Source of the DNA: an uncultured Phycisphaerales bacterium
GTDB taxonomy: Bacteria; Planctomycetota; Phycisphaerae; WQYP01
DNA: 64,000 nucleotides
Assembly: GCA_963766775.1 (NCBI GenBank)
Contig: CAVYBP010000010.1
Span: 120,523 to 184,522, forward strand
Reading direction: 5' to 3'
Made by a program: the position numbers and the translations under genes. The notes beneath the pieces were generated by a model. It saw nothing but the letters and a program-made list of their open reading frames with translations. It did not search any database and was not told the origin of the DNA. Shown here piece by piece: positions 18,732 to 63,842 of this stretch (the first letter of the stretch is position 1; every line of letters starts with the position of its first letter).

Positions 18732-18734
18732 GGA

Positions 18735-26943: not shown

Positions 26944-26962
26944 GCTTCTGCGTTGGGTTTAT

Positions 26963-46596: not shown

Positions 46597-48492
46597 TTAA
46601 GGTGGGCGTTTTGTGGTGGTGGGGGTGATGCGGGTCCAGACGCGGGTGCGCCAGGTGTGGAAGATGTAGCAGCGCCATTCGTAGTGCCATGGGTAGCGTT
46701 CTTCGGCGTCGAGTTTCCAGCGTGGGCCGAGGCGTTTGGCGAGGGATTCGTTGGAGAGTATTTCTTTGGGTTCGGTGAGGTCGCCGTAGCGGTCGGTGAG
46801 GATGATGGTTTTGACGGCGGGTGTGCTGCGCATTTCGGTGAGGAATGCGAGGCATTCGGCGGGGCTGTAGAGGCTGTAGCGCCAGTGCTCTTCGGGGATG
46901 AAGGGTTCTTGTTCGGGCGTGGGGCGTTCGCCTGCGGCGAGGTGGAAGGTGACTTGTTCGACGGGCATGGCGTAGGGGGTGGAGGGGTTGCCGATGGCGA
47001 GGCTGAGTTTCTTTTGGGGATCGTAGTAGCGTTTTGCGATTTCGGCGATGCGGTTGAACGGGGGGTTGCGGAGGATGAGGTGGTTGGAGAGTGATGAGAA
47101 GGTGCAGGCGGCGGTGACGAAAGTGATGGCGAGTGTTCGCAGGGGCCAGGTGGGGAGGCGGCGGAGCGAGGCGGCCATCCAGAGGAGCCATGCGGGTACG
47201 ATCATTCCGAGGTAGCGGGGCTCCCAGATTGCGGGCGGCGTGAAGCTTTGCCAGAGCCAGTTGTGCCACGGGGAGGTGTCGGGGATCCAGGTGAGGGCGA
47301 GGGCGGTGGAGGGGATAAGGATCCAGGCGGCGACCCACCACCAGCGTCGGCGGGTGACGGATTGGATGCGTTCGGGGCTTCGGCGGATGCCGCGCCAGGG
47401 GATGAGGCCGAGGAGTAGGATCGCGAGGAAGGCGATGGCGACGTAGAGTTGTGCGTCAGCCATCCAATGCCAGGAGCGGGTGGCGAGGTGGCGGTTGAAG
47501 TCGCTGTCGCCAAGTTCGAACCAGTCTTGCAGGCGAGCCCAGTCGGCTTTATCACCGGTAAGGGCGGCGGCGGGTGCAAAGGGGTGGAGGAGCAGATGGC
47601 CGATGTTGAGGGTGGGTTCGGTGGGGGGGCTGCTGGGATAGACGGGCCAGAGGTATCCGAGGAGATGGGAGCATGGGAGGCTGGCGAGGGTTTTCCAGGA
47701 CATGTCGGTGTAGCGGGTGATCCAGGAGAGTCCGCCGTCGGAATTTTGATCGACGACGCTGGTGAGCCATTGTGTGCGATAGGTGTACCAGTAGACGGGG
47801 AGGAGGGAGATGAGTCCGACGCCGGTGAGCCAGAGAGGGCCGTCGAGGCTTTTTAAGCGTGGGCGGGTGAGAAGAAAGAGGAGTTGGAGCGCGATGATGA
47901 ACCAGGCCATGGATTGCATGGCGGTCATGAGGAAGCCGGTGAGGACGAAGAGTGGGAACCAGAGGAGATGCTTGTGGGTGGTCTGCCATTTGAAAAAGAC
48001 GGCCATGTTGAGCGCGACGAAGAGCCACATGGCGGAGTACATTTTGATGTCGCGGGAATAGTAGATGAGGAAGGGATTGACGGCGGTGAGGAGGGCGACG
48101 AGGAGAGCGCCTTTGCGGTCGGTGAATTGTCGTGCGAGAAAGTACATGGCGGGGACGGTCAATGTGCCGAGGAGCGCGGGGAGGCTGCGCGTGGCGGCGG
48201 GGGAGAAGGCGAAGGAGCCGGAGCGGGTGTAATTTTCGATGGCGAGGCACCACCAGCGGAGAGCGGCGTACCATCCGGGAGGGAAGCCCTGGGTGGAGAG
48301 GCGTGCGAGGAGGTAGTCGAATGAGCCGCAGATACGGGCGACGGTGGAGGCTTCATCGGTCCAGTAGCATTGATAGCCGATGCGCCAGAAGCGGAGGAAC
48401 GCGCCGAGGGCTGTGAGGGCGAGGAGGCAGGCCCAGAGGAAGGGGGTTGAGGGGAAGCGGTTCCAACGGCTGAGGGCGGGTTGTTTGGACAT
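46597..48492 (-). CDS. GT-C membrane glycosyltransferase, GT39/ArnT-like (dolichyl-phosphate-mannose protein mannosyltransferase family)
   Basis: multi-TM N-terminal region with YWTDEAST...LPALLGTLTVPAMYFLARQ, large C-terminal soluble domain. Confidence 0.6.
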   Translation of the reverse strand: MSKQPALSRWNRFPSTPFLWACLLALTALGAFLRFWRIGYQCYWTDEASTVARICGSFDYLLARLSTQGFPPGWYAALRWWCLAIENYTRSGSFAFSPAATRSLPALLGTLTVPAMYFLARQFTDRKGALLVALLTAVNPFLIYYSRDIKMYSAMWLFVALNMAVFFKWQTTHKHLLWFPLFVLTGFLMTAMQSMAWFIIALQLLFLLTRPRLKSLDGPLWLTGVGLISLLPVYWYTYRTQWLTSVVDQNSDGGLSWITRYTDMSWKTLASLPCSHLLGYLWPVYPSSPPTEPTLNIGHLLLHPFAPAAALTGDKADWARLQDWFELGDSDFNRHLATRSWHWMADAQLYVAIAFLAILLLGLIPWRGIRRSPERIQSVTRRRWWWVAAWILIPSTALALTWIPDTSPWHNWLWQSFTPPAIWEPRYLGMIVPAWLLWMAASLRRLPTWPLRTLAITFVTAACTFSSLSNHLILRNPPFNRIAEIAKRYYDPQKKLSLAIGNPSTPYAMPVEQVTFHLAAGERPTPEQEPFIPEEHWRYSLYSPAECLAFLTEMRSTPAVKTIILTDRYGDLTEPKEILSNESLAKRLGPRWKLDAEERYPWHYEWRCYIFHTWRTRVWTRITPTTTKRPP

Positions 48493-48707
48493 GGGTGGCG
48501 GGTATGTGGGGCGCGGTGCTTCGCAGAAGGCGCGGCGGGGGAGCCTTCGGGGGAGAGCGGCGGTGCGGAGGATGGGATGGGTGAACCGGTGGTCACGGAT
48601 TTGGGAACCTCACGCCGGGCAATGATGTGGGGATGTTACCAAAAGGGCGGAGGAAGGTGGGAGCGGGGGAGGCGTTTCCAATTTTTCTACGGTGGAAGAT
48701 GGTGCGA

Positions 48708-51207
48708 TCAGTCGAAGAAAAATGTTTCGCCAGTGTTGATGTTGAGGTTTTGGAGGGTGTTGAGGGTGCCGGTGAAATGGGTGGTGGAGTTGTCGAGGGT
48801 GAGGGTGGGGAGGTTTTGGAAGAAGACGATTCCGCCGGCGGTGGGGCCGATCTGGGTATCGGTCATGGTGAAAAGTTGGGAAGGATCTTGACCGAAGATA
48901 CGGAGTTCGTCGTTGGAGGCGGCGGTGGCGTTGAGGCTGATGTTGCCGCCGGGGATGGGTGAGCCGTTGGTGAAATCGATGGTGAGAATGTTGTCGGTGC
49001 CGGAGAGGTTGAAGGTGAGGGAGGGGAGTTTGGCGAGGGCGATCTGGTAGGTGGGTGTGGAGGAGGGGGTGGTTCCGGTGGAGATTTGGAGAAAGGTGTC
49101 AGAGGGGTCGACGGCGACGTAGTAGGAATCGGAGTTGGTGGTGGTGTTGAAGATGGTGGAGAAGTTGCCGAAGTTTTGGCCGGTGATGGCGGTAAAGAGC
49201 GGCGCGGTGGCGTAGCCGCTGCCACCGTTGGGGGTGGTGAGGACATCGCCGGCGGGGACGATCTCGCGGATGTTGTAGGAAGCGCCGAGGGGCAGGTTGG
49301 CAAAGGAGTATGCCCCGGCGGCATTGCTGGTGGTGGTCCAGACGTCAGTGGTGCCGGTGGTGACGCTGAGCGACCAGGATTGGAGGGTGCCGGTGTTGCC
49401 GGAAACGGTGTCTGCGACGCGAAGTTTCCAGGTGCCGTTGGCGGATTTACCGTTGAAGTCGGCGAGTGCGTTCTTGGGCCTGTAAGTACCGGAAAAGGGC
49501 GCGGCACCGGAGGAGATGCCGGTGGAGGCCTGATCGCTGAATGTTGTGCCGGTGAAGTTTGATCCGTTGCCACCCACGCCGTCGGCAAGTGCAATCTGGT
49601 TACCGTCGGGCGCTGATGAGATAGATCGTCAGGTCGGAGTCTCGCGCGTGGCCGATGGTAAGGGTGACGGAGAGGTTGGAAATCGGGTCGGTGGTGCCGC
49701 TGATTTGAATACTTGACGAGGCTCCGAGGCGGGAGGCATCGGGTATGAGCATGCTGGAGGTATTGGACACGGTATTGGTGGCACCGGTTTCGAGAACGCC
49801 ATCGTTGTTGGAATCCAGGTAGACGGTGACGCCGCTGAGGGCGGGGTCTGTGGCATCCTTCAGGTTATTGGTGTTGTTGTCCTGAAAAACGGTGCCGGAG
49901 ACGGAGGACGTACCCATGAGGCCGTAAACGAGTTTGTTCACGATGGGCGATCCGCGTCCGGTGACGAGGTCGTATCCTGTGGCGGCGCTATAACCGGAAG
50001 GGAAGTTGGCGTTCGCGTTGCTGCCGGTGAGCACATCGTGAAAATCGCCGGCGGGAAGTTGATAGAGGAGCGGCAATGTTTGGCTGGGACCATCAAGAGA
50101 TGTGAGGCCAAGCGTCGCGCGGCCCTGATCGGCAATGGCGACCATGCCGGCCATGAGAGGAGCGGAGAGGCTGGTCCCGCCGACGCGAATCCAGGGACTG
50201 GATGCGAAATCGTAGGAGTCATAGACGGCAACGCCCGTTTGCGGATCGGCGACGGCGGAGATATCGGGATTGGTGCGAGCCGTATCGCTTTGTGTGGCGA
50301 TGCCGTCCTGATAGGTTGGCTTTGCTTCGTAATTGCTGATTCCACCGCCGCTGCCGCTCCACCCGGTTTCGGAATTGTAGGCATTGCTGGAAGTGAGGGA
50401 CAACGAGGTGCCGCCGACGGCGACGACGTTGGGGGATGCGGCGGGATATTCGGTAGGTGAGCCGCTATCGCCCGTGGAAGCGAGAAAAGTGACGCCGGGA
50501 TGTCCCGCGGGGGTGGTGAAGAAAGAGTCGAGGCCGGTTTCACTGCCAAATTCGCTGCTGCCGAAGCTCATGGAGATGGTGGAAACGCCGGGCTGTCTGG
50601 CGGCCCATGTGGCGGCGGCTTGGACCAGGTTCTGATACTGGCTGTCGACGGCTTCGACGAGAATAATTTTCGCGCCCGGAGCCGCTGCGTGCGCCCATTC
50701 GACATCGAGCGATTCTTCGATGGACCAATTGGTACTTCCTGATGCGGCGGGGAAGTTGGCACTTCCGTTCTGAGCGACTTTGGTAAAGGAGGGCGGGGCG
50801 GGAAGGCCGAATTGAGTGTCAAATGTGTTGAGGTCGGTGATGATATTGGGATCGTCAAAGGCGTCAATGATGGCGATCGTTTGGCCGGTACCATCGCCTT
50901 GGGTCGAGCCAAAGCGAACCTGATCGAATCCGTATGCCTGCCGGATTTGGGCAGGTGTGAAAGCATTGCCAGGGGGGGTGGTGGCGTTGGGCGAGGCATG
51001 ACCGTTTACGATTGCGACGGGATTGGCACGGTTGGTGAGAGCATGACGGCGGCGTGAGGCGATCCATTCATCCGCGATTTCCCGGAGGGTTTCTTTCCAA
51101 GGGGCTGAACTGTCGGCAAAGGTGTGAACTGAGGACAGCAGAACTCGTGATTCGAGGCATTCAAGGAATCCGAAGCGAGACAGAGAGCGGTTACGGCGAA
51201 CGAGCAT
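48708..51207 (-). CDS. secreted S53 (sedolisin/kumamolisin-like) serine peptidase fused to a proprotein-convertase P-domain and Ig-like repeats; frameshift near 49590
   Basis: N-terminal RFGFLECLESRVLLS planctomycete-type motif, prodomain TPAQIRQAYGFD, catalytic GGTSLSAP; P-domain NGTWKLRVADTVSGNTGTLQSWSL in ORF 48708-49577. Confidence 0.55.
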
Positions 51208-51419
51208 CGTTTATCCAAAAGAAAACGCCAAACAGGGTCAGAGGGGGAGAGAGGGAAAATCATATATAGACAATGCCACAAATCCACCGAGAGGCAAGCT
51301 GTACCATTTTGGTAGGGTATTTTTGTGAAAAGGTTAAGGGTTTGGTTGTCTTGGGCAAGGTTGGGGGGCCACATTCCTATAAATCGCCCGGGAAAACGCA
51401 TCGTCACGCGGTTTTCGAC

Positions 51420-52495
51420 CTATTGGGGAGGGCTTTTATAGAGGGCGGAGTAGTCGGTGTCGGTGGGGTGTTGGGCGTACCAGGCGAACAGAAATGAGTA
51501 GACTCGCAGTGCGTGGGGTTGCGTTGCGGGGGGGGGTGGGGTTGCGATTGCTGCTTCGGTGGTGGCTTTCCAGTGGGTTCCATCGGTGGTGGTGAGAATG
51601 AGGGGGGTTTTGAAGGGGAGGGTGGAAGTGGGCCACGGGGGGGTGGGGGCGACGGGGAAGCGGATGTCGTCGGTGGCGAGGTAGAGGTTGAAGGGGTCCT
51701 GGGCGTCGGTGTAGGACTGTTTCAGGGTGCGCAGGCCGCGGAAGACGCGGGTGGCGGGGTGGGCGGCGAGCCATTGTTTCCAAGTGGTCAACTCGAAGGG
51801 GAGGAGGGTAAGCGACTTGCCGGCGGCGGGGCCGGCGATGGCGCGGAAGGAGAGTTGGGACCACAGCGATTCCTGCGCGGGGTCTGGATGGCGGTCGAAG
51901 AGGAGGAGGTTGGAGTTGTACAGGAGGCCGGAGACGCCGAATTCGAGGCCGGAGGCGGGGGCGGGGACTGGGGAGGGGGGGGGGGGGCGGGGCGGGTGAA
52001 GACGACGGCGCTGCCGGAGAGGGCGGACCAGGTGACGGCGAAGGGGGTGTTGGCGATTCGGTCGTTGACGATTTCGTGGAGGTTCATGAAGCGGATGGGG
52101 TAGGCGCGGGCCTGGCCGTCGATGAGGACGCCGATGACGCGGTCGGGGCCGAGGAGGAAGGGGGTGTAGTCGTGCTGGTTCATGAGCTCGACTTCGGGCG
52201 GGGAGAGGGTTTCGACGAGCGATTCGGGGACGGCACGGACGGCGTCCTTGGGCTTTCCGGAGGGGATGAGCTGTTCGCGCGGGACGGTGAGGTTGGCGAG
52301 GTTGAAGTGGTAGGAGTCGAGATGCTGGCCGTCGCCGACGGCGGAACGGAACCCGGTCTGCCACACCGGGATGAGGACGATGACAGCGGAGAGGAGGGTG
52401 AGGATCGCGGCAAGGAGGAGGACCCAGCCGCCGGAGGAGAAGGTGAGGAGGCGGGTGGGGGGGTGGGGCGGCGGGATTTCTGGTGGGTGTTGCAT
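51420..52495 (-). CDS. membrane-anchored DUF3179-like protein interrupted at an internal G13 (poly-Pro-coding) tract
   Basis: N-terminal TM (GWVLLLAAILTLLSAVIVLI) and DYTPFLLGPDRVIGVLIDGQARAYP in ORF 51788-52495; C-terminal half in ORF 51420-52364; frames switch at G13 tract 51975-51987. Confidence 0.45.
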
Positions 52496-53429
52496 GGTGC
52501 GTATGGTAGCGGGATGCGCGGGGTTTGGGGTGGGTAAATTGTAATTGGTAAATAGTAATTGGCGATTTCTTTGAGCGCGGTTGGGGGCAAGGTGCTCATT
52601 GGGTTTGCGCAGGTGCGCAAATGGGAAAGTGGTGTAAGTGGTTGGGGATGCGGGGGTTGGTTCGAGGTGCGCAAGATGCTCATTTTATTTTTTAATTCGA
52701 GGGCGAGTGTTGGGGCTTGGGTCTTGAGTCTTGGGGGGTGGGGAGGGAATGCTGAATGTGGAGTTCTGAATGGTGAAGGGGAGAGTGGGTGCATGGTGGT
52801 CTCCTATAGAGGGGCGGTGCGCCCGAGTTTGTGCGCACAGGATCGCGGGGTGGAGGATGCAAGTGGTTGTGGGGGTGTGGGTTGGGTTTTTTGGAGGGGT
52901 GGAAAATTTGTGGCGGGAGGGGTTGGGCTGTGCGCACAGGCGGTTAAAGGAATTGTTGGGGGGGGGGTCGACTTTTAGAGTGTTTGGGGATATGCGGGTG
53001 GGCAATTTTTTTTTGGGGGGGGGGGCGTGCCGGGAGAAGGGTGGTGGGTGACATTTTGGCGGTCTTTTGTGGCTCGCCGAGCGAAAAAAATGTTTGGGAC
53101 CTCACTTTGCTGGATTCCTCTGTCCTTCTATTAAATTTAATTATAGATATATTCATGTCTCCATTAAAAATGGAGTTGGTTTTTTTATAGGGGTATGGAG
53201 TGGTGAGGGGTGGGTGGGTTTGGGGGAGGTTTTTTTTGGGGGGGGTTGAGGGTGGTGGTGGTGTGGTGCCGGGGGCGGGGTGGTTGTCTGAGGATGGGGG
53301 GTTGGGGTTTGGGGCTTTTGGGGGGTGATTGGAGGGGTAGCGGGGGCGGATGGATCGGGCGGTTTCGGAGGAGGATGGGCCGGCGGTTGGGAGTACGCGG
53401 GTAGACATTTTAGGCGGTCTGTGCGTGAC
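52496..53429. other. 0.9-kb G-rich (plus strand) gene-free low-complexity region with poly-G tracts, repeated TGCGCA boxes and an AT-rich hairpin
   Basis: no ORF with protein-like composition; G8-G12 runs at 52966, 53014, 53237; GTGCGCACAGG x2, AGGTGCGCAA x2; CTCCATTAAAAATGGAG hairpin + T-run at 53158-53187. Confidence 0.5.
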
Positions 53430-54041
53430 TCACCGCGAAAACAAAGATGTTTGACCCCCCTTTCTTCGCCCCGTCAATTTGCTGTTAGTTCGCCTTCTTA
53501 ACCGCCTAGGCCCTACTGCGACCAGCACATGGTGCACGACAAATCGTCCATCCAATCGATCATGACTAGTATCGACGCTCCATTTATAATGGGGTAGGAA
53601 CGTCGATGGAGTGCATACAGAGTTTTGTGTCGGCATCTTCAATGTTGATTTCAGTGCTCGTATTTCCTCTTGGATGTCGCGGAAAGCTGTGGCCACCTTA
53701 TCGTCCATGACATAGCCAACCATGCCTCCGCAGGGTAATCCCTGAGAATACCGGCCTTCTACAAAGCGTTGAACACCTTCTACCACATATTTATCGACGA
53801 GATTTTTGAATCCAGAATTGGTCGTGACCCGCAATCGCTTACATTCCACAGTGAAGAAGATCGACTGGCGATGGTGATGATCTAAAGGGTAGAACCGAAT
53901 GTCATTTCGTCCCGTCTCAGTTCCGAATGTGGAGTCGGTAACGGGATCCTCCAAGGTAACGAACCAGTTACGCCCCGCTGCTACATAGGCGTCGATGAGG
54001 GCATGTCGGAACAATGCCGTAATCGGCTCTTCCAAGAGCAC
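53430..54041 (-). CDS. hypothetical PD-(D/E)xK nuclease-like protein in low-GC island
   Basis: YPLD-x13-ECK arrangement (FYPLDHHHRQSIFFTVECKRL) resembling restriction-endonuclease-fold motifs; C-terminal ~25 codons look like read-through into G-rich DNA. Confidence 0.35.
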   Translation of the reverse strand: MLLEEPITALFRHALIDAYVAAGRNWFVTLEDPVTDSTFGTETGRNDIRFYPLDHHHRQSIFFTVECKRLRVTTNSGFKNLVDKYVVEGVQRFVEGRYSQGLPCGGMVGYVMDDKVATAFRDIQEEIRALKSTLKMPTQNSVCTPSTFLPHYKWSVDTSHDRLDGRFVVHHVLVAVGPRRLRRRTNSKLTGRRKGGQTSLFSR

Positions 54042-54153
54042 CCGGTGGTGGATACAGAATTTGCGCAGGTTTCTAGGACGTGCAACATAACTTCACCAGC
54101 AAATCCGACTGGAAATAGCTGCCGCCGAAAGTCGATGGTGGAGCCGGAATGGC

Positions 54154-57100
54154 TCAATCTCGCCATCCATTCTCCTTCATCATCCGTGTAAGTATCTCGT
54201 CCGCGTCATTCATCGCTGAAGTGCGTGTCCAGTGGCGACGATTTAGTGGTTTTAGGATGTGAACTCTGTCGGCCTCGTAGAGCACAAAGCCTTTTAGACG
54301 TGTGAATTGGACACCATGGTCCGATGTCTGCTGGCGAATACTTTCCAACAAATTTACAACATTATCGTCGACCTGGTCCTCGCAGTATTTCTTAGGCTGG
54401 TCGCCGAGACCAAGGGTTATGAGGGCTAAGCCGATCTTGGTCGCAACATGTCCTTCCGCCCAAAGGCTTCTATTGGTCCTACTCCAGTCGCGAAAATTCT
54501 TCACCAAGCTTTCCGCGTATTCCCTTCGATGTACGGGGTTAGACGGCGCGACGGTCAAAAGCCTGTCTGATAAGAGAGAACCAGGGGTGGAGCTTGGGCG
54601 AAAGAGTCCGACAGTGTCCTGCACTAGCTGCAACTCCCAATCGCACATTTCGAAATATTTGTATACCAGATCGTGTAAATCCTGTTGAGCAGCTTCAATC
54701 AAACCCTCCCTTTGCAGAAAGTTATTTGGCTTTTGTATTTCGCTACGTAGTTTACGCATGCGGCTTGCGCCGGTTTTCAATATGGACTCGCTAAGTTTTG
54801 GATTTGGCATGTCCTCCGGCAACGGAAATGGTAGTTCCAAAATTTCCTCTAATCGAGCAACGTCTCGCTCTATCCCAATGTTTGCCGTGGTGTGGAAAAG
54901 GAGGTATTGGGTCAGTGGGCTGGACAGGACAATCGTCAAGAACAGCAGCTCATCCTCCTCGTGGGAGGGCGCCACATATGGCTTGGAAATCGTGTTGGAA
55001 AAGCACGTCAAAATTCGAAAAGAGAAATTTTGTACAGGCTTGGTTGATAAGAATCAACGGTGCCTCATAAATCAGCGGGTTTCGTTCCCGATGGAGCCCT
55101 TCCTGCTTGTATCGATTTCCGATGGGTTCGCAATCGCTACGCAATAAAAATAGATCGTGAACCGTTGCATCTGCCGCAAGAAAAAGATCAGTGTCTTTCC
55201 AGAAAATTAGCTTAGGAACTGTCGTACTCGCGGTTGCAGGCTGAAATCCCTGACCCTTATACCATTCCCTTGTTCGCTTTTTGGAAACTAAATTATTCTT
55301 TGGAGGGCGCTTGGCCAAACGTTTCAGTTTTGGCAGTTTCATAAGGCGTTCAAGCAATCGCACATCACGTGGGGTGCCCCAGTGCTGCCTTTTCCACTCC
55401 GCGGCAGCCTCCTTTTTCTGCGCAGCCGAAACAATGTCTGATTCATAAAGGATTTTTTGGTCTTCCGGTAAAACGGGAATTATTGCTTCACGCGGATCAA
55501 TTAATTCAACTTTTGGCGACACAAATTCGAAGCTTCCCAATTGCTCATCAATATCGCGAATGTGATAACGGCTGATAAAGCAAGGACAGTCTGCGTTCGG
55601 AAATAGGACGAAGCTCCAATCTGCGAGTAACCAGACTGTTTCTAAACGATGATGTTCAAGCCAAGCTGACTGGAAGCGGTTCGTGTTGTTACTGAGAAAG
55701 ACTCGCGACGGCAAGATTTGACAAACTCGACCTCGTTCAGAGGTATGCAAGCCCGCCTTCCACATAAACCCACACGCGAGTTCGCGGGCTGGGAATAACG
55801 CTTGGCTACGATCGTCGCTCTCTAGATGGGAAAAGTATGGATTCAAGTCGATAGAAAATAGCCAATCTTCGACGACCGGAGCCGGCTTCCGGCTGACCCA
55901 TGGGGGGTTACCGATTACCAGGTCGAATTCCTTTTCGGCGGATAAATCGAAGAAATCTAACTGTCGAATCGTCGGAAAGTGTGGCAGTCTGGGGCGAGGT
56001 TTGTCATGTTCCCAGAGTATTCGAGGCAAAATTCTTTGTTTTGTGTCACGATCTAATACGTCTTTCAACTCAATGATTTCTTTCGGATCCATCTGATCGA
56101 GAAACGCGAGGTAGAGGCTGAAACAACTGACGAAGCACGCTGTTGGATGAACGTCCATTCCTCGGAGGTTGTCCGATAGAAGACGCATCAGTTCATCATA
56201 TCGGCGTCGTGTGTTGGCTCCCGGATTTCGCTTCCGCCACTCCTCCGCCATGCGAATGAAAAGTATCACCAGGAATACGCCTGAGCCACACGCGGGATCG
56301 AAGCAGCGTTTATCTAATAATGTGTCCCACCCCTCGGTTCCGATGTCGACAGCCAGTTCAGCAAGGCGTGGTGGGGTATAATATGCGCCCAAGCTTCGCT
56401 GGCTGTGAGAGCCGGAACTTTCGTGTATGTTGGCTGTTCGCTTCGTGGCTTTCTTTTCTTCTTCTAGTTCGGCTTCTGCCTCGGCACCGAGAAATTCTTC
56501 ATAAATAGAACTGATTAGTTCGACAGGCACAAAGCCGAAGTGATAGAGTTTGAAGAGCGCAAGCTGACCCGTTCGTCAGATCTTCCCCTGAAAGGAAGCG
56601 CTGGAGATGCTCTACTTCTGTCTGCTGAATTTGGTAATCATCCAATAGGGGGCCGAAGAGCGAACCGTTAAAATCTCGTTGTAGCGATTTGAAAAGGACT
56701 TCGAGCGTTTGCGGTCCGTCCGTCGCACGTTGCAAAAGCCCGAGCATGTCATCGGCTTCGGGAAGGTTGGAAGCCTTCAGATAGGAGGCTCCGATGATCT
56801 GACGATCGAAGAAGGTAGCAGGAAAATAGAAATCTTCCAATGAGGGCATGTGTCTGGCGATAGCCCTTAGCACTTCTGGTTGGACAAATGAGGTCACGTA
56901 CCTCCCGAAGATTTTCGAGAAGATTTCGGTCCACGGAAAAATGTGGATCGAAAAGCGATTTATGTTCTCGGTAGATTGCGCCCGTCTCTACTCGATAAAT
57001 TAGTTGGCGCAGCCGCAAAGCGAGTTCAATCGACCGGAGATTTTGAATAGTTTCGTTTGGTAATTCTGCGCTGCTCTCAGAGCTGTTGCGCGTTGGCTTC

Positions 57101-57501
57101 ACAAACGTCGAGAAAACTTTAATATCGCGTTTTCCTTCGGCGATGAGGAGGGTGGTCGATCCGAGATTCCACAAGTTACGCCTGAGTGTTTCAACCTCTT
57201 CTGGCGACAGATTCCTCGCGTTTTTTATGCAGACCGAGGGTCTACCTTCGGTACAGAGAACTGCATCGATTTTCAGTTCGGTAAAAAATCTTCTCAGCGC
57301 ATGGCCATGTGAACGAAATTCCGGGGCGTTTTCCCATTGGTCGGAAGAGCGAATTAGGTGCGCATCCACACAGGCCTCCCATCCGTCGCTACGGAGCAGG
57401 GAGGATGTGGAGTTTCTCACTTCAACTGTCACGAGATTCACCTTTTTCGGACGGCTAACGGCAAAGGCCGTGACTGCAGCGTAAAGGCAGGTAGACCCCA
57501 C
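54154..57501 (-). CDS. MmeI-like Type IIL/IIG restriction-modification enzyme (nuclease-like N-domain + gamma-class N6-adenine methyltransferase + target-recognition domain), split over 4 ORFs by 2 apparent frameshifts
   Basis: LLIAEGK (cf. MmeI LLIEMK ExK), ALIGRFLFSCYL and DFNGSLF helical-linker motifs, GAYYTPP, FDPACGSGVFL (SAM motif I), VIGNPPW (motif IV); ORFs 56749-57501, 56499-56897, 54950-56530, 54154-55011; GC ~50% versus 63% background. Confidence 0.5.
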
Positions 57502-57628
57502 AATATGTGGTTAATCCATTCACGTTACGCAAGATATAGTATTCTTACCACCTCTTCGTTGACACTGCAATAGGCTGCAACCCTCCCTTGGGAGTAAACG
57601 CGCTGTTGCGGTGCAGTCATCAGAACCC

Positions 57629-58896
57629 TCAACTACCGAAGAGGCTGTGGGGTTGGAAGTAGCCTTTTTGGTCGAAGTATTTGAAGGCTTCGTCGACGCT
57701 GCGGAAGACTTTGTTGGCAGTTTGGGTGATGAAGGGGCTTGGTTCTTTTTTTGGTTTCCAGATGACGTAGACGTCTTTGGCGTGTTCGTGGGCGTGTTGG
57801 AGTTCGCGTTCGACGCCGCTGCTGAGGGCGGGTTTTCCGTCTCCGGCGCCGGGGCCGGCGGGGCCGGGGAGTTCGGGGATGTAGGAGATGATCATGTCGG
57901 ATTGTCGGACGAGCATGAAGTCTCGGGCGTAGATTTGGCCGTCGATGTCGGGGACGATTTGGAGGAGGTCTGCGACTTTGAGGTGGAGGGGGGAGGGGGA
58001 GGACTGAGGGGAGGGGCTTGGGGCTTGGGGGCTTGGGGCTTGGAGGGTTGAGGGTTGGGGGTTGGGGGGAAGAGGGTGAGGGTTTGTTTGCCGGCTTGGG
58101 CGGCTTGGATGGCGAGGTTGGAGAGGATTTTTTCGTCGACGTCGCCGGGGTCGAAGGCGATCATTTTTTCGGCGATTTTGGCGCGGAAGGCGTTGATCTC
58201 AGCGAGGATGTCCGGGAGGTCCATGACGTGCGACATCGGGAAGGATGGGTAGACGGTTTTCATGTTGGGGCGGAAGAGGAGGCGGAAGAGGGTTTCGTAG
58301 GTGGGGGTGGTTCGGCCACGGGAGAGGACGAAGAAGCGCGAGGAGTCCTGAGTCTTGAGTCTTGAGTCTTGAGAGGGAGCGGGGGGGGGAGGCACGGCGC
58401 CGCCTTGGTTGGGGGGGATTCGGCGGATGGAGCGGGCGAGGATTTCGGTGGCGAGGATTTCTTCTTCGCGCCAGACCATGAGGTCTTTGAGGGAGTGCTC
58501 GAAGTCGTGGTCGCGGAGCATGCGTTGGTGGACGGTTTCGATGTTGTCGACGAGGGTGACGTAGAGGTCGGCGTCGAATGCGGCGAGCTGGTCGAAGTCG
58601 AAGGCGGAGAAGAGGCCGTGCTTCCAGCGGAAGGTGGCGTGGGTGTTGACGATGACGTTTTTGTGGTTGTGCATGTCGGCGAGGATGTCGCGGAACACGG
58701 CGCGGCGAAGCGAGTTGAGGCGTGAGAGAGGGAGGTCGAGGATGCGGCCCGGGGGGACGTCGGGGGCTTCGCGGTACATCATGTCGCCGATGTGGTAGAT
58801 GTGGAGTTGTTCGCCGTTGAGTTGTGCGATGGCGGCGACCTGGTCGAGGAATGCTTTTTTGTCGAGGCCGATTTGGCCGGTGAGGAGGGTTCGCAT
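57629..58896 (-). CDS. three-domain hypothetical protein (degenerate P-loop kinase-like N-domain) whose inter-domain linkers are encoded by simple-sequence repeats; frameshift in second linker
   Basis: N-domain MRTLLTGQIGLDKKAFLDQVAAIAQ...VIVNTHATFRWKHG; linker 1 from (TGAGTCT)3.5+G9 at 58349-58389; linker 2 from (GCTTGGGG)4 at 58014-58045; C-domain in ORF 57629-57916 (DVYVIWKPKKEPSPFITQTANKVFRSVDEAFKYFDQKGYF). Confidence 0.35.
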
Positions 58897-58926
58897 GGGG
58901 GCTCCTGGGTTGGGGTGGGATGGGTT

Positions 58927-59870
58927 TTAGGGGTTGGTGAGGGGGTTGGGGTTGGTGAGGGCGTTGACTACGTCGCGGGCGACCCAGCTCATTTGGTCCA
59001 TGGCGCCTTGGGTTCGGGCGGCGAGGTGGGGTGCGAGGATGATGTTGGGGCAGTCGAAGAGGGGGTAGTCGGAGGTGGGAGGTTCGGGGTCGTGGACGTC
59101 GAGGCATGCGCCGGCGATGCGGTGGTTTTTGAGTGCGGCGGCGAGGTCGTGGGCGTTGACGACTTCGCCGCGGCAGGTGTTGACGAGGATGGCGGTGGGT
59201 TTCATTTGGGAGAGTGCGGCGGCGTTGATGAGGTGGTGGTTGAGGTTGTTGGGTTGGTGGTTGACGTGGAGGGTGAGGATGTCGGCGCGGGCGTAGAGTT
59301 CGGGTTTGGTGACGCTGATTGCGGGGTAGTCGATGAGTGGGGAGACGTCGAGGAGGTCGTTGTAGAGGACGTTCATTTGCATGGCCCAGGCGATTTTGCC
59401 GACGCCTCGACCGATGCGTCCCATGCCGAGGATGGCGATGGTTTTGCCGGAGAGTTCGAGTCCTCGGATATTTTTGCGGTAGGCGTGGAAGGCGTCGGGG
59501 GGGACGGCTTCTTTGAGGTTCACGACGGGGCGGGCGAGAGAGAAGATGAGGTTGAAGACGTATTCGCAGACGGCGCGGGAGTTGGCGGTGGGGGTGGAGA
59601 GGACCTGGATACCGCGTGCGGCGCAGGCGGGTTGGTCGATGTTGTCGAGGCCGACACCGGCGCGGCCGACGACTTTGAGTTTAGGGGCGTGGGAGAGGAA
59701 GGCGACGTTGACCTGGGTGTAGGTGCGGACGATGACGGCGTCGGCGTCGGCGAGAGCGGCGTGGAGTTTTTCGGGCTCTTTCCAGGAGACTTCGAGGACT
59801 TCGGCGTTTTCGCGGAGCCAGGCGAGGGGGATTTTTTCGAGGCTTTCGGTGAGGAGGATTTTGGGTTTCA
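58927..59870 (-). CDS. D-isomer-specific 2-hydroxyacid dehydrogenase (SerA/glyoxylate reductase-like)
   Basis: MKPKILLTES start with AAGGA RBS; NAD-binding GKTIAILGMGRIGRGVG, catalytic His region LAPHLAARTQ; embedded in spurious longer ORF 58927-60474. Confidence 0.7.
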
Positions 59871-59893
59871 TGGGGGTCCTTGTGGAAGGGGGG

Positions 59894-60012
59894 GGTAGAC
59901 GGTAGACGGTAGACGGTAGACGGTAGACGGTAGACGGTAGACGGTAGACGGTAGACGGTAGACGGTAGACGGTAGACGGTAGACGGTAGACGGTAGACGG
60001 TAGACGGTAGAC
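59894..60012. repeat. perfect heptanucleotide tandem repeat (GGTAGAC)x17 preceded by G8
   Basis: 17 identical 7-bp units; G8 at 59888-59895; lies 24 bp upstream of ATG at 59870 and downstream of HAD stop; inverted partial copies (GTCTACC x2-3) at 60039-60072. Confidence 0.9.
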
Positions 60013-60059
60013 GGAAAAATGCCACTGCCACCATTTTTCTACCGTCTTCTGTCTACCGT

Positions 60060-60791
60060 CTACCTTCTTCCGTTTGGCGACATTTTTATGTTGAGCCATT
60101 GTGCGAGTTGGGTGGGGGTGAGGTGGGAGAGGGAGGGGAGGGCGAAGGTGGCGTGGCGTTGGACTTGTTCGAGTGGGAGTGAGGTGGCGACGCCGAGGAC
60201 GCGGAGGTGGGCGGCTTTGGCGGCGCTGCAACCGCCTTCGGAGTCTTCGATGACGAGTGAGAATTCTTTTTCGAGTTCGGCGTCGTATTCGAGGTTGAGT
60301 TTGTCGAAGGCGAGGTTGTAGCCTTCGGGGTCGGGCTTGCCCATGCGGACGTCTTCGATGGTGACGAGGACGTCGAAGTGGTGGCGGAGGTGGAAGGCGT
60401 CGAGGAGGGTGAGGATTTCCTCGCGGCGGGCACCGGAGCAAATGGCGCGGGGGATGTTGTTTTGTTCGAGCCATTCGAGTGTTTCGCGGACGCCTGGGAG
60501 TGGCTCGGCGAATTCGCTGAGGTTTTTTTCGAAGAGGGCGTGCTTGGCGTCGGCGAGTTTTCGGATGAGTGCGGGAGGGTGCGGGCGGCCATGATCTCGG
60601 AGGATGTGGGTGAGGCCTTCGGTATCGCCGTAGACGATGTATCGGGTGAAGTAGGTTTGGGGGGAGATGGCGAGGGTGCCGCCGATGTCATCGGCGTGTG
60701 CGGCGAGCGTGTGGTTGTAGGCGCTGAGGTGGAGGCGTTCGGTGTCGGCGATGACGCCGTCGAAGTCGAAAATCACGCAGCCTTGGGACAT
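60060..60791 (-). CDS. HAD-superfamily hydrolase (beta-phosphoglucomutase/phosphatase-like)
   Basis: motif I VIFDFDGVIADTE, motif II/III (CSGARREE, GKPDPEGY...EDSEGG); stop TAG at 60060-60062 embedded in inverted copies of the heptamer repeat. Confidence 0.65.
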   Translation of the reverse strand: MSQGCVIFDFDGVIADTERLHLSAYNHTLAAHADDIGGTLAISPQTYFTRYIVYGDTEGLTHILRDHGRPHPPALIRKLADAKHALFEKNLSEFAEPLPGVRETLEWLEQNNIPRAICSGARREEILTLLDAFHLRHHFDVLVTIEDVRMGKPDPEGYNLAFDKLNLEYDAELEKEFSLVIEDSEGGCSAAKAAHLRVLGVATSLPLEQVQRHATFALPSLSHLTPTQLAQWLNIKMSPNGRR

Positions 60792-60871
60792 GGAGGGTTC
60801 CTTGGGAATGTCCGGTTTGTTAGTTAGGTCTTTCAGTGGTGGAGAGATTTTACAGTGAGAGGCGGGGGAGG

Positions 60872-60901
60872 GGTAATTGGTAAATAGTAATTGGTAATTG
60901 G
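60872..60901. promoter_or_regulatory. conserved AT-rich 30-mer GGTAATTGGTAAATAGTAATTGGTAATTGG = (TAATTGG)-like heptamer x4, 81 bp upstream of HAD gene
   Basis: identical 30-mer recurs at 62682-62711; variant at 52533-52562; inverted partial copy at 62755-62770. Confidence 0.5.
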
Positions 60902-60974
60902 CTGGCGCAGGAAGGAAGTACCCCCGCGGTGGGGCGGGGTGTATGTGTGATTTCCTGATTTTTGGAGGTTCCGT

Positions 60975-62033
60975 TTAGTTGCCGTTTTGGAATGGGGGAA
61001 GGGGTTCGGGTTTTCCGGGGCCGGCGTGTTCCAGCATGGTGGATCTGGGGTGGACGGTGTATTCCTCGACTTCGAGGACGCCGAAGTGGCGTTTGCCGTT
61101 TTCGGGGTAGTGGGGAACTTCGCGGCGGACGGTCATGTTGGCGATGGCTTGTTCAACGGAAATCTGGACCTGGGTGCTGACGTGGTATGAGTCGCCATTG
61201 ATGGTGACGAGGTAGGGGACGACTTCCTCGGTGTTGCCGGGATCTGCGCTTTCAATTTTGGCTTTGGAGGGCCAGTCTGCACCGTATTTCTTTTGGAAGT
61301 CGTCATGCATGTGGGTGTAGACCATCTTATAGAGAAGGTCTTCGTGGGTGTTGTTGGTCTGGCGTTCGCGGAAAGAGATGAGGAGGAAGGCGTCGTTGTA
61401 GCCTTTGTCGGTGCCGAGGGCGACGTCCTCAAGGAATTGCCTGATTGCGGCTTCGCGGGTGGTGGGGTAGTCGTCGAAGGCTCCGGCGGGATGGAACATA
61501 AGCCATGCGCCGATGCCAAGGAAGACGACAATGCCGAGCACGAGAAGGATGAGGGCGCCCTTGACGATACGGCCGATCCAGTTGGCGGCGACTTCGGACG
61601 TGGAGGTTTTTTCGGCCTCGGCTTTCATGGCGAGGAGCTTGTCCATTTGGGTGACGTCGCGGTGGCAGCGGAGGCAGAGCTTGCGGTTTTTGATGACGGG
61701 GGCGTCGCAGTTGGGGCAGAAGTCGGGCATTTTGGAGGAAGCCGGCGCTGGGGTGGCGGCGGGGCGAGCGGCAGGTGCGGTGGCGACGGGCGGTTTGACG
61801 GTGGGGGCGGGACGTTTGGGAGCGGATTCTGTGGAGGGGAGAAGGTCGTATTCGCCATCATCAGCGGGGCGTGGAGCGGGGGCTGGAGCGGCTGTCGGAG
61901 CGGGGCCGCGTTGGACGGCGGCGTGGTGGCAGGGCTCGCAGTAGTAGTGGCCTTGGGCGTCTTTGATGCGTTTAGTGGAGGAGACGTCTTTGTTGCAGAG
62001 GCGGCAGATTTTTTTGATCGCGGTGCTGGACAT
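60975..62033 (-). CDS. hypothetical membrane-anchored protein with two N-terminal zinc-ribbon motifs
   Basis: CRLCNKD...CEPCHH and CPNCDAP...CLRCHRD C4 pairs, Pro/Ala-rich linker, TM helix IVKGALILLVLGIVVFLGIGAWLMF, periplasmic domain. Confidence 0.45.
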   Translation of the reverse strand: MSSTAIKKICRLCNKDVSSTKRIKDAQGHYYCEPCHHAAVQRGPAPTAAPAPAPRPADDGEYDLLPSTESAPKRPAPTVKPPVATAPAARPAATPAPASSKMPDFCPNCDAPVIKNRKLCLRCHRDVTQMDKLLAMKAEAEKTSTSEVAANWIGRIVKGALILLVLGIVVFLGIGAWLMFHPAGAFDDYPTTREAAIRQFLEDVALGTDKGYNDAFLLISFRERQTNNTHEDLLYKMVYTHMHDDFQKKYGADWPSKAKIESADPGNTEEVVPYLVTINGDSYHVSTQVQISVEQAIANMTVRREVPHYPENGKRHFGVLEVEEYTVHPRSTMLEHAGPGKPEPLPPFQNGN

Positions 62034-62198
62034 TTGCTTCTCCCGTGACGTGGCTGAGTAGAGTTGACACGATTGTGCGGGAAAGGGGGGATGGAAGGCA
62101 AGCAAAATCGGCCGCGCGGGGGCGGCGATGGGGGTGCGTTTGGGGTGTTTTTTTGCGACACGCTAAAGCGTGAACTCCGGGGGGGGCGGGGTGTGGGG

Positions 62199-62654
62199 TT
62201 ATGGGGTATTTGCGAGGGCGGCGAGGATTTCTGCGTCGTTGCGTTCTTCGCGCATGGGTTGTTCTTTGAAGAAGGAGACTTTGCCGTCTTTGGCGACGAT
62301 GACGGTGGCGCGGCGGCCGATGTTGGCGTCGGGGAGGAATAGGTCGTACCTTTGGACGACTTCGCGTTTGATGTCGGAGAGGAGGTCGTAGGAGATTTTG
62401 AAGGCGTTGCGGAATGCTTTGTGGCACCAGACGGAGTCGATGGAGATGCCGAGGATGACAGCGTCTTTGGCGTCAAATTGGGGGAGGTCGGTCATGAAGC
62501 AGGTGTGCTCATTGGAGCAGACGGGGGAGAAATCGAGGGGGTAGAAGGCGAGTACGACTTTCTTTTTGCCTCGGAAGTCGGAGAGTTTGATTTTGGTTTT
62601 GTCCTGATTTTCGAGTTCGAAATCGGGGGCGAGTTGGCCGACGGTAATGGGCAT
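62199..62654 (-). CDS. peroxiredoxin (AhpC/TSA family, Bcp/PrxQ-like)
   Basis: MPITVGQLAPDFEL...VVLAFYPLDFSPVCSNEH with peroxidatic Cys; AGGAG RBS; ORF extends to 62765. Confidence 0.7.
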   Translation of the reverse strand: MPITVGQLAPDFELENQDKTKIKLSDFRGKKKVVLAFYPLDFSPVCSNEHTCFMTDLPQFDAKDAVILGISIDSVWCHKAFRNAFKISYDLLSDIKREVVQRYDLFLPDANIGRRATVIVAKDGKVSFFKEQPMREERNDAEILAALANTP

Positions 62655-62681
62655 GGGGGGGCTCCTGTGGGAGGGACAAAC

Positions 62682-62711
62682 GGTAATTGGTAAATAGTAA
62701 TTGGTAATTGG
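62682..62711. promoter_or_regulatory. second identical copy of the AT-rich 30-mer, 28 bp upstream of peroxiredoxin start
   Basis: exact match to 60872-60901; forms an inverted arrangement with CCAATTACCAATTACC at 62755-62770 in the peroxiredoxin/queD divergent intergenic region. Confidence 0.5.
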
Positions 62712-62822
62712 GGTATTGGCGAGATTGGGCGGGAGATTTTCAAATTCGTATGTGCCAATTACCAATTACCAGCTGTTCAGTACCCGCTTACTTTGGCACT
62801 TTGATGGAGGTAGGATAGAGCC

Positions 62823-63200
62823 ATGAAAGAGCAGCCGTTTATTGTGGAATTGACGAAGGAGTTTCGGTTTGAGGCGGCGCATAGTCTGCCGCAGGTGCCG
62901 GCGGGGCATAAGTGTGGACGAATGCATGGTCATTCGTTCCGGGTGGAGGTGACGATACGCGGGGCGGTGGATCCGCGGACGGGGTGGTTGATGGATTTTG
63001 GGGAGTTGAAGGAGAAGTTTGGGCCGTTGGAGGAGCAGTTGGATCATCGGTTGTTGAATGAGGTGGCGGGGCTGGAGAATTCGACGAGTGAGAATATAGC
63101 GAGGTGGATATGGGTGCGGTTGAAGCGGGAGGTACCGTTGTTGTTTGAGATTACGGTGCATGAGACGTGTACGAGCAAGTGCGTGTATCGGGGGGAGTGA
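62823..63200 (+). CDS. queD: 6-carboxy-5,6,7,8-tetrahydropterin synthase (6-pyruvoyl-tetrahydropterin synthase family)
   Basis: CGRMHGHSF zinc-binding motif and ~125-aa length typical of QueD/PTPS. Confidence 0.7.
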
Positions 63201-63241
63201 ATGGAATATTGAATGGTGAATTCTGAATGCAGAAAGGGGGG

Positions 63242-63841: not shown

Positions 63842-63842
63842 A

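What the first reader, a model, noticed from the sequence alone, without database searches (positions are those of the whole stretch)
53430..57610. Low-GC island carrying a frameshifted MmeI-like Type IIL restriction-modification gene plus a small PD-(D/E)xK protein
GC drops from ~63% to ~50% over ~4.2 kb, bounded on the left by a 0.9-kb G-rich gene-free tract. The large minus-strand gene has MmeI-family hallmarks: an ExK nuclease-like N-domain, the ALIGRFLFSCYL and DFNGSLF linker motifs, and gamma-class m6A methyltransferase motifs YYTPP, DPACGSGVFL and NPPW. It is split into 4 ORFs, and the residue aligned to the catalytic Asp of MmeI (VDLFWPGILLIEMK) is Asn here (RNLWNLGSTTLLIAEGK). This suggests a nuclease-dead or phase-variable R-M enzyme. 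A separate 203-aa protein with a D-x13-ECK motif sits immediately downstream, an arrangement not typical of MmeI-like single-chain systems. Together they could form a horizontally acquired, possibly noncanonical defence module.
Basis: partly seen in the sequence, partly recalled or inferred. Interest (0 to 1): 0.7.

Follow-up and report, generated by a model that had tools for sequence, protein, structure and literature searches.

The report
Two-gene restriction-modification island, likely mis-assembled frameshifts
A 4-kb piece of foreign DNA carries a widespread but unnamed two-gene restriction-modification module (a large methylase/recognition protein plus a small separate nuclease), and the "frameshifts" that made it look broken also occur in ordinary host genes nearby, so they are probably sequencing errors.

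Summary
The low-GC, skew-neutral island of about 4.1 kb is real (GC 0.49 against 0.58 +/- 0.02 elsewhere).

It holds two overlapping minus-strand genes. One is a ~1,114-codon Type IIG-like methyltransferase/recognition gene. The other is a ~219-codon PD-(D/E)xK nuclease gene.

The pair is a conserved module, not an oddity. It occurs in 55 of 62 genomic loci from many phyla, is fused twice, and sits on plasmids of cultured strains. The small-protein family has 443 clusters at E<=1e-10 and no Pfam, NCBIfam or PADLOC model.

The large protein has an MmeI-like architecture but fails MmeI family membership. The invariant D...ExK sits in the small protein, which is the likely cutting subunit.

None lies in a repeat.

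However, about seven similar frame breaks (three supported by Pfam or a direct read, four by eye) interrupt ordinary host genes in the same window, at comparable density. The frame-corrected protein is also as well conserved as intact relatives. The breaks are therefore most likely assembly errors, or a genome-wide feature, rather than phase variation or R-M-specific inactivation.

The parts
53396..57587 (.). Foreign island (about 4.2 kb) holding only the two-gene module. The edges are approximate.
   Evidence: GC is 0.49 and skew about 0, against 0.58-0.59 and +0.28 to +0.40 in the rest of the window on either side. The fine-scale switch is at about 53400 and about 57600-57650.
54154..57501 (-). 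Large gene: Type IIG-like protein with REase-fold N-domain, helical spacer, gamma-class N6-adenine MTase, and recognition/C-terminal regions. It is 1,114 codons once three bases are removed.
   Evidence: tblastn of the intact 1086-aa homolog from L001 covers residues 10-1086 in frames -2, -3, -1, -2. Removing bases 56808, 56577 and 54974 gives one ORF without stops. PADLOC PDLC03623 matches.
57082..57384 (-). N-terminal restriction-endonuclease-like fold domain without a family-conserved catalytic triad. The window copy has D79/E85/K93 at 57223-57273. The invariant W111-N112 lies within 57130-57180.
56510..57081 (-). Helical spacer with the ALIGRFLFSCYLL and DFNGSLF motifs.
55898..56383 (-). 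MTase catalytic core: YYTPP (56369-56383), motif I DPACGSGVFL (56270-56299), motif IV NPPW (55898-55909).
   Evidence: Pfam Eco57I and N6_Mtase match.
56808..56808 (-). Frame break 1: extra base (cttctt[c]gat on the coding strand).
   Evidence: DNA alignment to L001 and ORF restoration.
56577..56577 (-). Frame break 2: extra base (ctg[a]cgaacg).
   Evidence: Homologs read FLSGEDLRTGQLSLFKLYDF across this point.
54974..54974 (-). Frame break 3: extra base (tgt[g]gcgccc).
53514..54166 (-). Small gene: about 219-codon PD-(D/E)xK nuclease. Its start overlaps the large gene's stop by 13 nt. The ORF runs on to 53430 past the family's normal end.
54065..54067 (-). Frame break 4: one base missing from the conserved Trp codon (TGG read as TG-C) of the small gene.
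   Evidence: Three-frame reading. W34 is nearly invariant in A2.
53832..53912 (-). Catalytic motif of the small nuclease: GRND (within 53892-53912) ... ECKRL (53832-53846).
   Evidence: D89 is present in 62 of 63 sequences, and E107 and K109 in 63 of 63, across loci. All are invariant in A2.
53387..53395 (+). TTGGGAGTA, left copy of a 9-nt direct repeat at the composition boundary. It is a possible target-site duplication.
   Evidence: The chance expectation is about 0.3 (my own estimate, not a tool result), so this is weak.
57588..57596 (+). TTGGGAGTA, right copy.

Best explanation
A horizontally acquired island of about 4.1 kb carries one copy of a widespread, so far unnamed two-gene restriction-modification-like module.

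Gene 1 encodes a protein of about 1,100 aa laid out like MmeI and other Type IIG enzymes. It has an N-terminal restriction-endonuclease-fold domain, a helical spacer, a gamma-class N6-adenine methyltransferase, and recognition/C-terminal regions. The N-domain has no conserved catalytic triad.

Gene 2 is translationally coupled to gene 1 by a 13-nt overlap. It encodes a PD-(D/E)xK nuclease of about 219 aa with an invariant D...ExK.

Inferred mechanism: the large subunit recognises and methylates its site. It also recruits the small subunit, perhaps through its pseudo-nuclease N-domain, to cut unmethylated DNA. This resembles large/small-subunit enzymes such as BspD6I.

In this window both genes carry single-base frame breaks (3 + 1). 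The same kind of break interrupts ordinary host genes at similar density. The breaks are therefore most likely assembly or basecalling errors, not phase variation and not R-M-specific inactivation.
For: Island:
- GC 0.494 is below all 207 other 4.1-kb windows, and skew is about 0 against +0.45 in the flanks.

Module conservation:
- 62 genomic loci hold a full-length single-frame homolog of the large gene. 55 of them have the small gene immediately downstream. L006 (Pseudanabaena) and L013 (Brocadiia) have the two genes fused in one ORF of 1267 and 1291 aa.
- Starting from the small protein, the reciprocal look-ups returned five places on contigs (plus one short contig with a truncated gene). 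All show an upstream N6_Mtase/Eco57I gene of 1078-1106 aa with the same 13-nt overlap.
- The same pair occurs on plasmids of Bradyrhizobium elkanii USDA 61 and Sagittula sp. MA-2. There it is annotated 'N-6 DNA methylase' + 'hypothetical protein'.
- Pairwise identities of the small and large proteins correlate at r = 0.83-0.91.
- The small family has 1323 cluster representatives at E<=1e-3 and 443 at E<=1e-10. It has no hit in Pfam, NCBIfam or PADLOC.

Nuclease assignment:
- D89 is present in 62 of 63 sequences, and E107 and K109 in 63 of 63.
- The N-domain model (pLDDT 88.6) has an REase-like fold. Only P88 and W111-N112 are invariant. A D/E/K combination occurs in 12 of 63 sequences.

Frame breaks:
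- Exactly three extra bases separate the four ORFs. Removing them gives a stop-free 1114-aa ORF.
- The corrected protein departs from consensus at 4 of 105 highly conserved columns. That is mid-range for intact relatives.
- Host genes are broken in the same way. DUF3179 matches Pfam positions 13-76 in one ORF and 82-179 in the next, across a C13 run. The S8 protease P-domain has an extra G near 49590. The aldehyde dehydrogenase domain extends from profile position 339 to 403 when two frames are joined. By eye there are also breaks in a dehydratase N-terminus, two in an FAH-like gene, and one in an AAA_17 gene.
- That is about 4 breaks in the 5.7-kb operon at 15-21 kb, against 4 in the 3.9-kb module.
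Against: - No read data, so artefact versus real mutation cannot be settled.
- Some long host genes show no obvious break (GH2 776 aa, PMT_2 631 aa, two alpha-galactosidases). The island's density of about 1 break per kb may therefore be somewhat above background.
- A relative-rate test shows 1.3-1.6 times more lineage-specific amino-acid changes in the window copy (91 against 59 and 76 against 47, chi-square 6.8; 70 against 53, not significant). This would fit some relaxed selection.
- Several close relatives in metagenomes are also truncated by frameshifts (P0241, P0245-P0247, P0250, P0251, P0104).
- The subunit interaction and the cutting role of the small protein are inferred. No complex model or experiment exists.
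- In the window's own clade the N-domain keeps D79/E85/K93, so it might still be catalytic there.
Confidence: 0.55

Rival explanations
1. The frame breaks are real. The island is a decaying (pseudogenised) R-M module, inactivated after horizontal acquisition, for example because an incoming R-M system is costly.
For: - There are four breaks in 3.9 kb, none in homopolymers.
- The native stop of the small gene is lost.
- The window lineage shows a modest excess of amino-acid change.
- Close relatives are also often truncated by frameshifts.
- Several long host ORFs appear unbroken.
Against: - There is no nonsense substitution and no loss of conserved residues (4 of 105 conserved columns differ, mid-range for the family).
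- The composition is still entirely un-ameliorated.
- Equivalent breaks occur in a host catabolic operon, a protease and DUF3179. On this reading those would also have to be real pseudogenes.
Confidence: 0.3
2. One reading: a single-chain MmeI-family enzyme that is nuclease-dead (catalytic Asp replaced by Asn) and/or phase-variable through its frameshifts.
Against:
- No other MmeI-named Pfam model scored, and there is no phmmer hit to MmeI.
- A family profile matches MmeI only in the MTase core.
- A conserved partner nuclease exists.
- There are no repeat tracts at the break sites.
- The breaks are not specific to this gene.
Confidence: 0.04
3. The module is an ordinary Type II pair. The small protein is a self-sufficient BamHI-like homodimeric endonuclease that recognises its own site. 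The large protein is only its cognate methyltransferase, with a vestigial N-domain.
Against: - The small protein is recognisably conserved across many phyla, with a mean pairwise identity of 28% that tracks the large protein. Independent Type IIP enzymes usually are not conserved in this way.
- Two natural fusions to the C-terminus of the large protein and the conserved 13-nt overlap argue for a physical complex.
- The large protein keeps a conserved REase-fold domain and spacer that a plain methyltransferase would not need.
Confidence: 0.2

Closest known systems
MmeI / Type IIL single-chain R-M enzymes (Morgan et al. 2009, PMC2731913; Callahan et al. 2016, PMC4833311)
   Same: - Same order of parts: REase-fold N-domain, multi-helical spacer, gamma-class N6-adenine MTase (YYTPP, DPACGSG, NPPW), recognition region, C-terminal region.
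- No second methyltransferase gene is present.
   Different: - There is no sequence-level family relationship beyond the MTase core.
- The N-domain lacks the conserved D70/E80/K82-type motif.
- A conserved separate nuclease gene follows, whereas MmeI-family genes have no constant neighbours (PMC2731913).
YeeA/DnmA-type MmeI homologs without a nuclease motif, flanked by YeeB helicase and YeeC (PMC2731913, PMC9973331)
   Same: A MmeI-architecture methyltransferase whose N-terminus lacks a conserved nuclease motif and which always travels with partner gene(s) thought to supply the restriction function.
   Different: The partner here is a single PD-(D/E)xK protein of about 219 aa. There is no helicase and no T5orf172-type protein.
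Heterodimeric Type IIS/IIT enzymes with a large recognition subunit and a small catalytic subunit (R.BspD6I: N.BspD6I + small subunit; PDB 2ewf, 2p14)
   Different: The BspD6I large subunit is an active nickase without a methyltransferase. Here the large subunit is a methyltransferase fusion and its nuclease-fold domain looks non-catalytic in most members. The similarity is of fold only.
REBASE/PADLOC 'Type IIG restriction enzyme-methyltransferase' cluster PDLC03623
   Same: The intact homolog matches the model nearly end to end (232 bits, residues 53-980 to model positions 48-900 of 1022). The window's ORFs match it collinearly.
   Different: The label implies nuclease and methylase in one chain. 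In this family the conserved catalytic nuclease motif is in the separate small protein, which PADLOC does not model.

Membership tests
MmeI family (Type IIL) | Significant sequence similarity to MmeI over its whole length (E < 1e-20 in PMC2731913) | tested here: not met
   phmmer of the intact homolog against all PDB sequences gives no hit at E<=0.01. The family profile hits MmeI 5hr4 at E=2.1e-7 over MTase residues 303-493 only, and ranks below Type I HsdM proteins.
MmeI family (Type IIL) | N-terminal PD-ExK residues aligning with D70, E80, K82 | tested here: not met
An alternative D79/E85/K93 combination is present in 12 of 63 sequences, including the window copy, with non-canonical spacing.
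MmeI family (Type IIL) | Pfam models named for MmeI (MmeI_Mtase and those for its other domains) | tested here: not met
   MmeI_Mtase is the only MmeI-named Pfam model that scored. It scores 24.4 bits (cut-off 27) for the intact homolog and 28.4 bits for window ORF3. No other MmeI-named model scores at E<=1.
MmeI family (Type IIL) | Self-contained single polypeptide with no constant partner gene | tested here: not met
   55 of 62 loci carry the small nuclease gene directly downstream.
MmeI family (Type IIL) | Five-part architecture: nuclease-fold domain, helical spacer, gamma N6A-MTase, TRD, C-terminal region | tested here: inconclusive
Type IIG R-M enzymes (PADLOC PDLC03623) | Full-length match to the family model | tested here: met
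   E=2.4e-69 and 232 bits for the intact homolog. The window's ORFs match collinearly.
Type IIG R-M enzymes | Endonuclease and methyltransferase activities in the same polypeptide | tested here: inconclusive
   The MTase motifs are present. The N-domain has the nuclease fold but no conserved catalytic residues. Activity is not testable here.
PD-(D/E)xK nuclease superfamily (small protein) | Restriction-endonuclease-like alpha/beta core fold | tested here: met
PD-(D/E)xK nuclease superfamily (small protein) | Conserved D ... (D/E)xK catalytic residues | tested here: met
   D89 is present in 62 of 63 sequences, and E107 and K109 in 63 of 63. They are retained in the window copy at 53832-53912.
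PD-(D/E)xK nuclease superfamily (small protein) | Metal-dependent DNA cleavage | not testable with these tools
   Needs biochemistry.
Phase-variable R-M (contingency) genes | Frame change located in a homopolymer or short tandem repeat tract | tested here: not met
   The break contexts are cttctt[c]gat, ctg[a]cga, tgt[g]gcg and TG(G). The longest run is 2-3 bases. No tandem repeat lies inside the island.
YeeA/DnmA-YeeB-YeeC clusters | Flanking SF2 helicase (YeeB) and YeeC genes | tested here: not met
   The island holds only two genes. Relatives' neighbourhoods show no constant helicase.

The most novel reading that the evidence does not exclude
The module represents an unrecognised class of two-subunit, MmeI-architecture restriction-modification enzymes. 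A large methyltransferase/recognition subunit carries a catalytically dead 'pseudo-nuclease' N-domain. It recruits a separate small PD-(D/E)xK subunit that does the cutting. The class is widespread (hundreds of sequence clusters, many phyla, plasmids). Current annotation sees only an 'N-6 DNA methylase' plus a 'hypothetical protein'.
Probability: 0.45. Interest if true: 0.55.

Novelty: new variant of a known kind. Interest (0 to 1): 0.35.

Why it matters
For this window, the practical lesson is that the 'frameshifted, phase-variable, nuclease-dead' story should not be built on this assembly. The same breaks occur in housekeeping genes.

For the field, the useful result is the family. A conserved gene pair, occasionally fused, is annotated today as a methylase plus a hypothetical protein. 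It probably encodes a complete restriction system with the nuclease supplied in trans.

If that holds, three things follow:
- Many 'orphan' MmeI-like methylases would be reassigned to restriction systems.
- Defence-system finders would gain a new small nuclease family.
- Enzyme engineers would gain a new architecture: a recognition/methylation module separable from a small cutting module.

Cultured carriers exist for testing (Bradyrhizobium elkanii USDA 61 pBel61; Sagittula sp. MA-2 p5).

Tried and rejected
- Looked for the source record to learn the sequencing technology. P0001 is in the protein collection (NCBI/ENA, a 323,849-bp contig) but carries no name, and no gene position is on record. 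The window's genome did not appear in the species-representative genome scan.
- Looked for tRNA genes, Rfam RNAs, promoters and terminators at the island edges. None were found above chance.
- Looked for flanking repeats. Only a 9-nt direct repeat (TTGGGAGTA) lies at the composition boundaries, and it is compatible with chance.
- Tried a GC3 frame plot and a codon-usage model to count frame breaks across the whole window. Both were misled by the extreme strand skew and are not used as evidence.
- Compared profiles of the small protein and the N-domain alignment. There was no credible relationship: 75% probability, in a region outside the N-domain.
- The FAH-like gene and the C-terminal part of the AAA_17 gene have no Pfam model. 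Their frame breaks therefore rest on reading the three frames only.
- A literature search found no description of this gene pair.
- Programmed frameshifting was considered and rejected. Intact relatives are single ORFs, and the break sites differ among truncated relatives.
Full report
**Observation.**
The compositional island is real. Over 53500-57600 the GC content is 0.494. That is lower than any of 207 other 4.1-kb windows of the sequence (mean 0.584, sd 0.019, minimum 0.532). The GC skew collapses from about +0.45 in both flanks to about 0. Fine-scale profiles put the edges near 53400 and 57600-57650.

To the left, 52.5-53.4 kb is a G/T-rich tract with only low-complexity ORFs. There is no tRNA, Rfam RNA or above-chance promoter or terminator signal at the edges. 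A 9-nt direct repeat, TTGGGAGTA, sits at both composition boundaries (53387 and 57588). A match of that length is expected about 0.3 times by chance (my own estimate), so a target-site duplication is only a suggestion.

**The large gene.**
Four minus-strand ORFs (57501-56749, 56897-56499, 56530-54950, 55011-54154) match one PADLOC Type IIG model collinearly, at positions 35-190, 288-625 and 746-1017 of 1022. Pfam sees Eco57I and N6_Mtase in the third ORF.

An intact relative exists on an ENA metagenome contig (L001). It is a single 1086-codon ORF, 72% identical to the window's 526-aa ORF. tblastn of that protein covers residues 10-1086 on the window in frames -2, -3, -1, -2. A DNA alignment places three uncompensated one-base insertions at 56808, 56577 and 54974. 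Deleting those three bases yields one 1114-codon ORF with no internal stop.

The contexts are cttctt[c]gat, ctg[a]cgaacg and tgt[g]gcgccc. None is a homopolymer or a simple repeat.

**The small gene.**
The 203-aa ORF is only part of the gene. Relatives are about 219 aa and start at an ATG that overlaps the large gene's stop by 13 nt. The window has that start at 54166. It reads 33 homologous codons, then loses one base of a nearly invariant Trp codon at 54065-54067 and continues in another frame. The family's normal end (...HHVLxGV) is reached at 53514. The window ORF then runs on for 28 more codons to 53430.

**The pair is a conserved family.**
A scan of one genome per species returned 80 related loci.
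- 62 of them hold a full-length, single-frame homolog of the large protein (978-1151 aa, ORF upper bounds).
- 55 of those have a homolog of the small protein immediately downstream.
- In L006 (Pseudanabaena) and L013 (Brocadiia) the two are fused into one ORF of 1267 and 1291 aa.

The reciprocal look-ups start from small-protein homologs. They returned five places on contigs, plus one short contig with a truncated gene. All show an upstream N6_Mtase/Eco57I gene of 1078-1106 aa with the same 13-nt overlap. The settings include defence islands and integrative elements, and minimal two-gene insertions like the one here.

The pair is also on plasmids of cultured Bradyrhizobium elkanii USDA 61 and Sagittula sp. 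MA-2. RefSeq calls the genes 'N-6 DNA methylase' and 'hypothetical protein'. Pairwise identities of the two proteins are tightly correlated (r = 0.83-0.91).

A profile of the small protein finds 1323 cluster representatives at E<=1e-3 and 443 at E<=1e-10 among 1.84 billion. It matches nothing in Pfam, NCBIfam or PADLOC.

**Where the nuclease is.**

The first 294 residues of the large protein fold confidently (pLDDT 88.6) into two parts:
- A restriction-endonuclease-like alpha/beta domain, with hits to 9y1l, 3ijm, 1wdj, 3ot2, BsaWI and the HsdR nuclease domain.

The N-domain has no conserved catalytic set. Only P88, W111-N112, L119 and P136 are near-invariant. An alternative D79/E85/K93 combination, present in the window copy, occurs in only 12 of 63. 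The D-to-N argument for a nuclease-dead enzyme therefore has no basis. The Asn of the invariant 'WN' motif is the family consensus.

**Relationship to MmeI.**
The domain order is the one described for MmeI: nuclease 1-155, spacer 156-300, MTase 301-620, TRD, C-terminal bundle, with catalytic residues D70/E80/K82 (PMC4833311). Membership fails, however.
- MmeI_Mtase is the only MmeI-named Pfam model that scored, and it sits at about threshold.
- phmmer does not find MmeI.
- The family profile reaches MmeI only in the MTase core (E=2e-7), behind Type I methylases.

Morgan et al. (PMC2731913) defined the family by whole-length similarity and an aligned PD-ExK motif. They also noted a second group without the motif that always travels with a helicase and YeeC. 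The present family is a further arrangement of that kind, with a single small nuclease as partner.

**Most likely mechanism (inferred).**
- The large subunit recognises an asymmetric site and methylates adenine (motifs I and IV are intact).
- The small subunit supplies the catalytic PD-(D/E)xK centre.
- The translational coupling, the co-evolution and the two natural fusions indicate a physical complex.
- The conserved but non-catalytic nuclease-fold N-domain on a helical spacer is a plausible docking partner for the small nuclease. The large/small-subunit enzyme R.BspD6I is the closest analogy.

A rival is that the small protein is a self-sufficient BamHI-like Type IIP enzyme and the large protein only its methylase. 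The conservation across phyla and the fusions argue against this, but it is not excluded.

**Are the frameshifts meaningful?**
This is the weak point of the original finding. Ordinary host genes in the same window show the same defect.
- DUF3179 is split into two frames (Pfam positions 13-76 and 82-179) across a C13 run near 51990.
- The S8 protease's P-domain is split by an extra G near 49590. It reads ...DLTIYLIS|PDGNQ... once corrected, and Pfam P_proprotein positions 51-85 fall in the next ORF.
- The aldehyde dehydrogenase at 19695-21241 is split near 20790. Joining the frames extends the Aldedh match from profile position 339 to 403.
- By reading the three frames, there are further breaks in an enolase-type dehydratase (about 16572), two in an FAH-like gene (about 18004 and 18111), and one in an AAA_17 gene (about 57990).

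That is about 4 breaks in the 5.7-kb operon at 15-21 kb, against 4 in the 3.9-kb module.

The corrected large protein is not degraded. It departs from consensus at 4 of 105 highly conserved columns, which is mid-range among intact relatives, and it has no nonsense substitution.

Three points count against a pure artefact:
- Some long host ORFs look unbroken.
- A relative-rate test gives the window lineage 1.3-1.6 times more private amino-acid changes.
- Several close relatives in metagenomes are also truncated by frameshifts, at different sites.

My estimate is about 0.6 that the breaks are assembly or basecalling errors (or at least not specific to the island), about 0.3 that they are real inactivating mutations, and under 0.05 for phase variation or programmed frameshifting.

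**Verdict.**
The island and the gene identities are confirmed. The 'MmeI-like' label holds for architecture but not for membership. The 'nuclease-dead by D-to-N' and 'phase-variable' readings are not supported. The 'atypical extra PD-(D/E)xK gene' is the defining feature of a large, un-named two-gene R-M-like family. The window's copy is an unremarkable, possibly mis-assembled member. The family is a modestly interesting new variant of a known kind, and it can be tested in cultured strains.

Noticed in passing
window 1-64000 (for example 8000-28000 and 44000-64000): There is an extreme strand-wide GC skew of +0.3 to +0.5 on the + strand. It is not tied to the coding strand: + strand genes at 15-21 kb are G-rich and minus-strand genes are C-rich. 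This is far above usual bacterial values. Only the island and a few patches (1-3 kb, 33-39 kb) escape it.
   Followed up: partly
window ~16572, ~18004, ~18111, ~20790, ~49590, ~51990, ~57990: Single-base frame breaks occur in ordinary host genes: an enolase-type dehydratase, an FAH-like gene (two breaks), an aldehyde dehydrogenase, the S8 protease P-domain, DUF3179 (in a C13 run), and an AAA_17 gene. They suggest an indel-prone assembly or genome-wide gene decay.
   Followed up: partly
window 59894-60014: A perfect tandem array (GGTAGAC) x 17.3 lies just upstream of the start of a 2-hydroxyacid dehydrogenase gene. In the long ORF it reads as PSTVYRL repeats. It could be a contingency-type repeat.
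   Followed up: no
window 58005-58084 and 58343-58373: G-rich 7-, 15- and 22-nt tandem repeats, including (GAGTCTT) x 4.4, lie inside a coding region. They translate as proline- or serine-rich inserts, and one coincides with a frame change.
   Followed up: no
window 52500-53400: A 0.9-kb non-coding G/T-rich tract contains T9G11-type runs repeated 223 nt apart (53006 and 53229) and a 60-nt AT-rich core (53120-53180). Its function is unknown.
   Followed up: no
window 4813-5556 and 6006-6869: Two paralogous prepilin-type N-terminal ([21 protein letters not shown]...) proteins lie in a 50% GC patch. With the ECLESRVLLS-type signal of the protease at 49600-51207, they point to a planctomycete host.
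   Followed up: no
L082 3043-3687, L083 3043-3687, L084 3085-3696: In some relatives a LexA-like gene (LexA_DNA_bind + Peptidase_S24) sits directly upstream of, or overlapping, the large gene. It may be a controller of the module. It is absent from the window.
   Followed up: no
L001 3535-7059; L082 9040-14708: Relatives of the module lie in defence islands, next to a Type ISP-like enzyme, a pAgo (Piwi) + SIR2 pair and an OLD/UvrD Gabija-like pair, and next to integrases.
   Followed up: no
P0241, P0245-P0247, P0250, P0251, P0104: Many of the closest metagenomic relatives of the N-terminal part are themselves truncated by frameshifts at various sites. In addition, gene callers often start the intact gene at an internal Met (856 aa instead of 1086 aa in L001).
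   Followed up: partly
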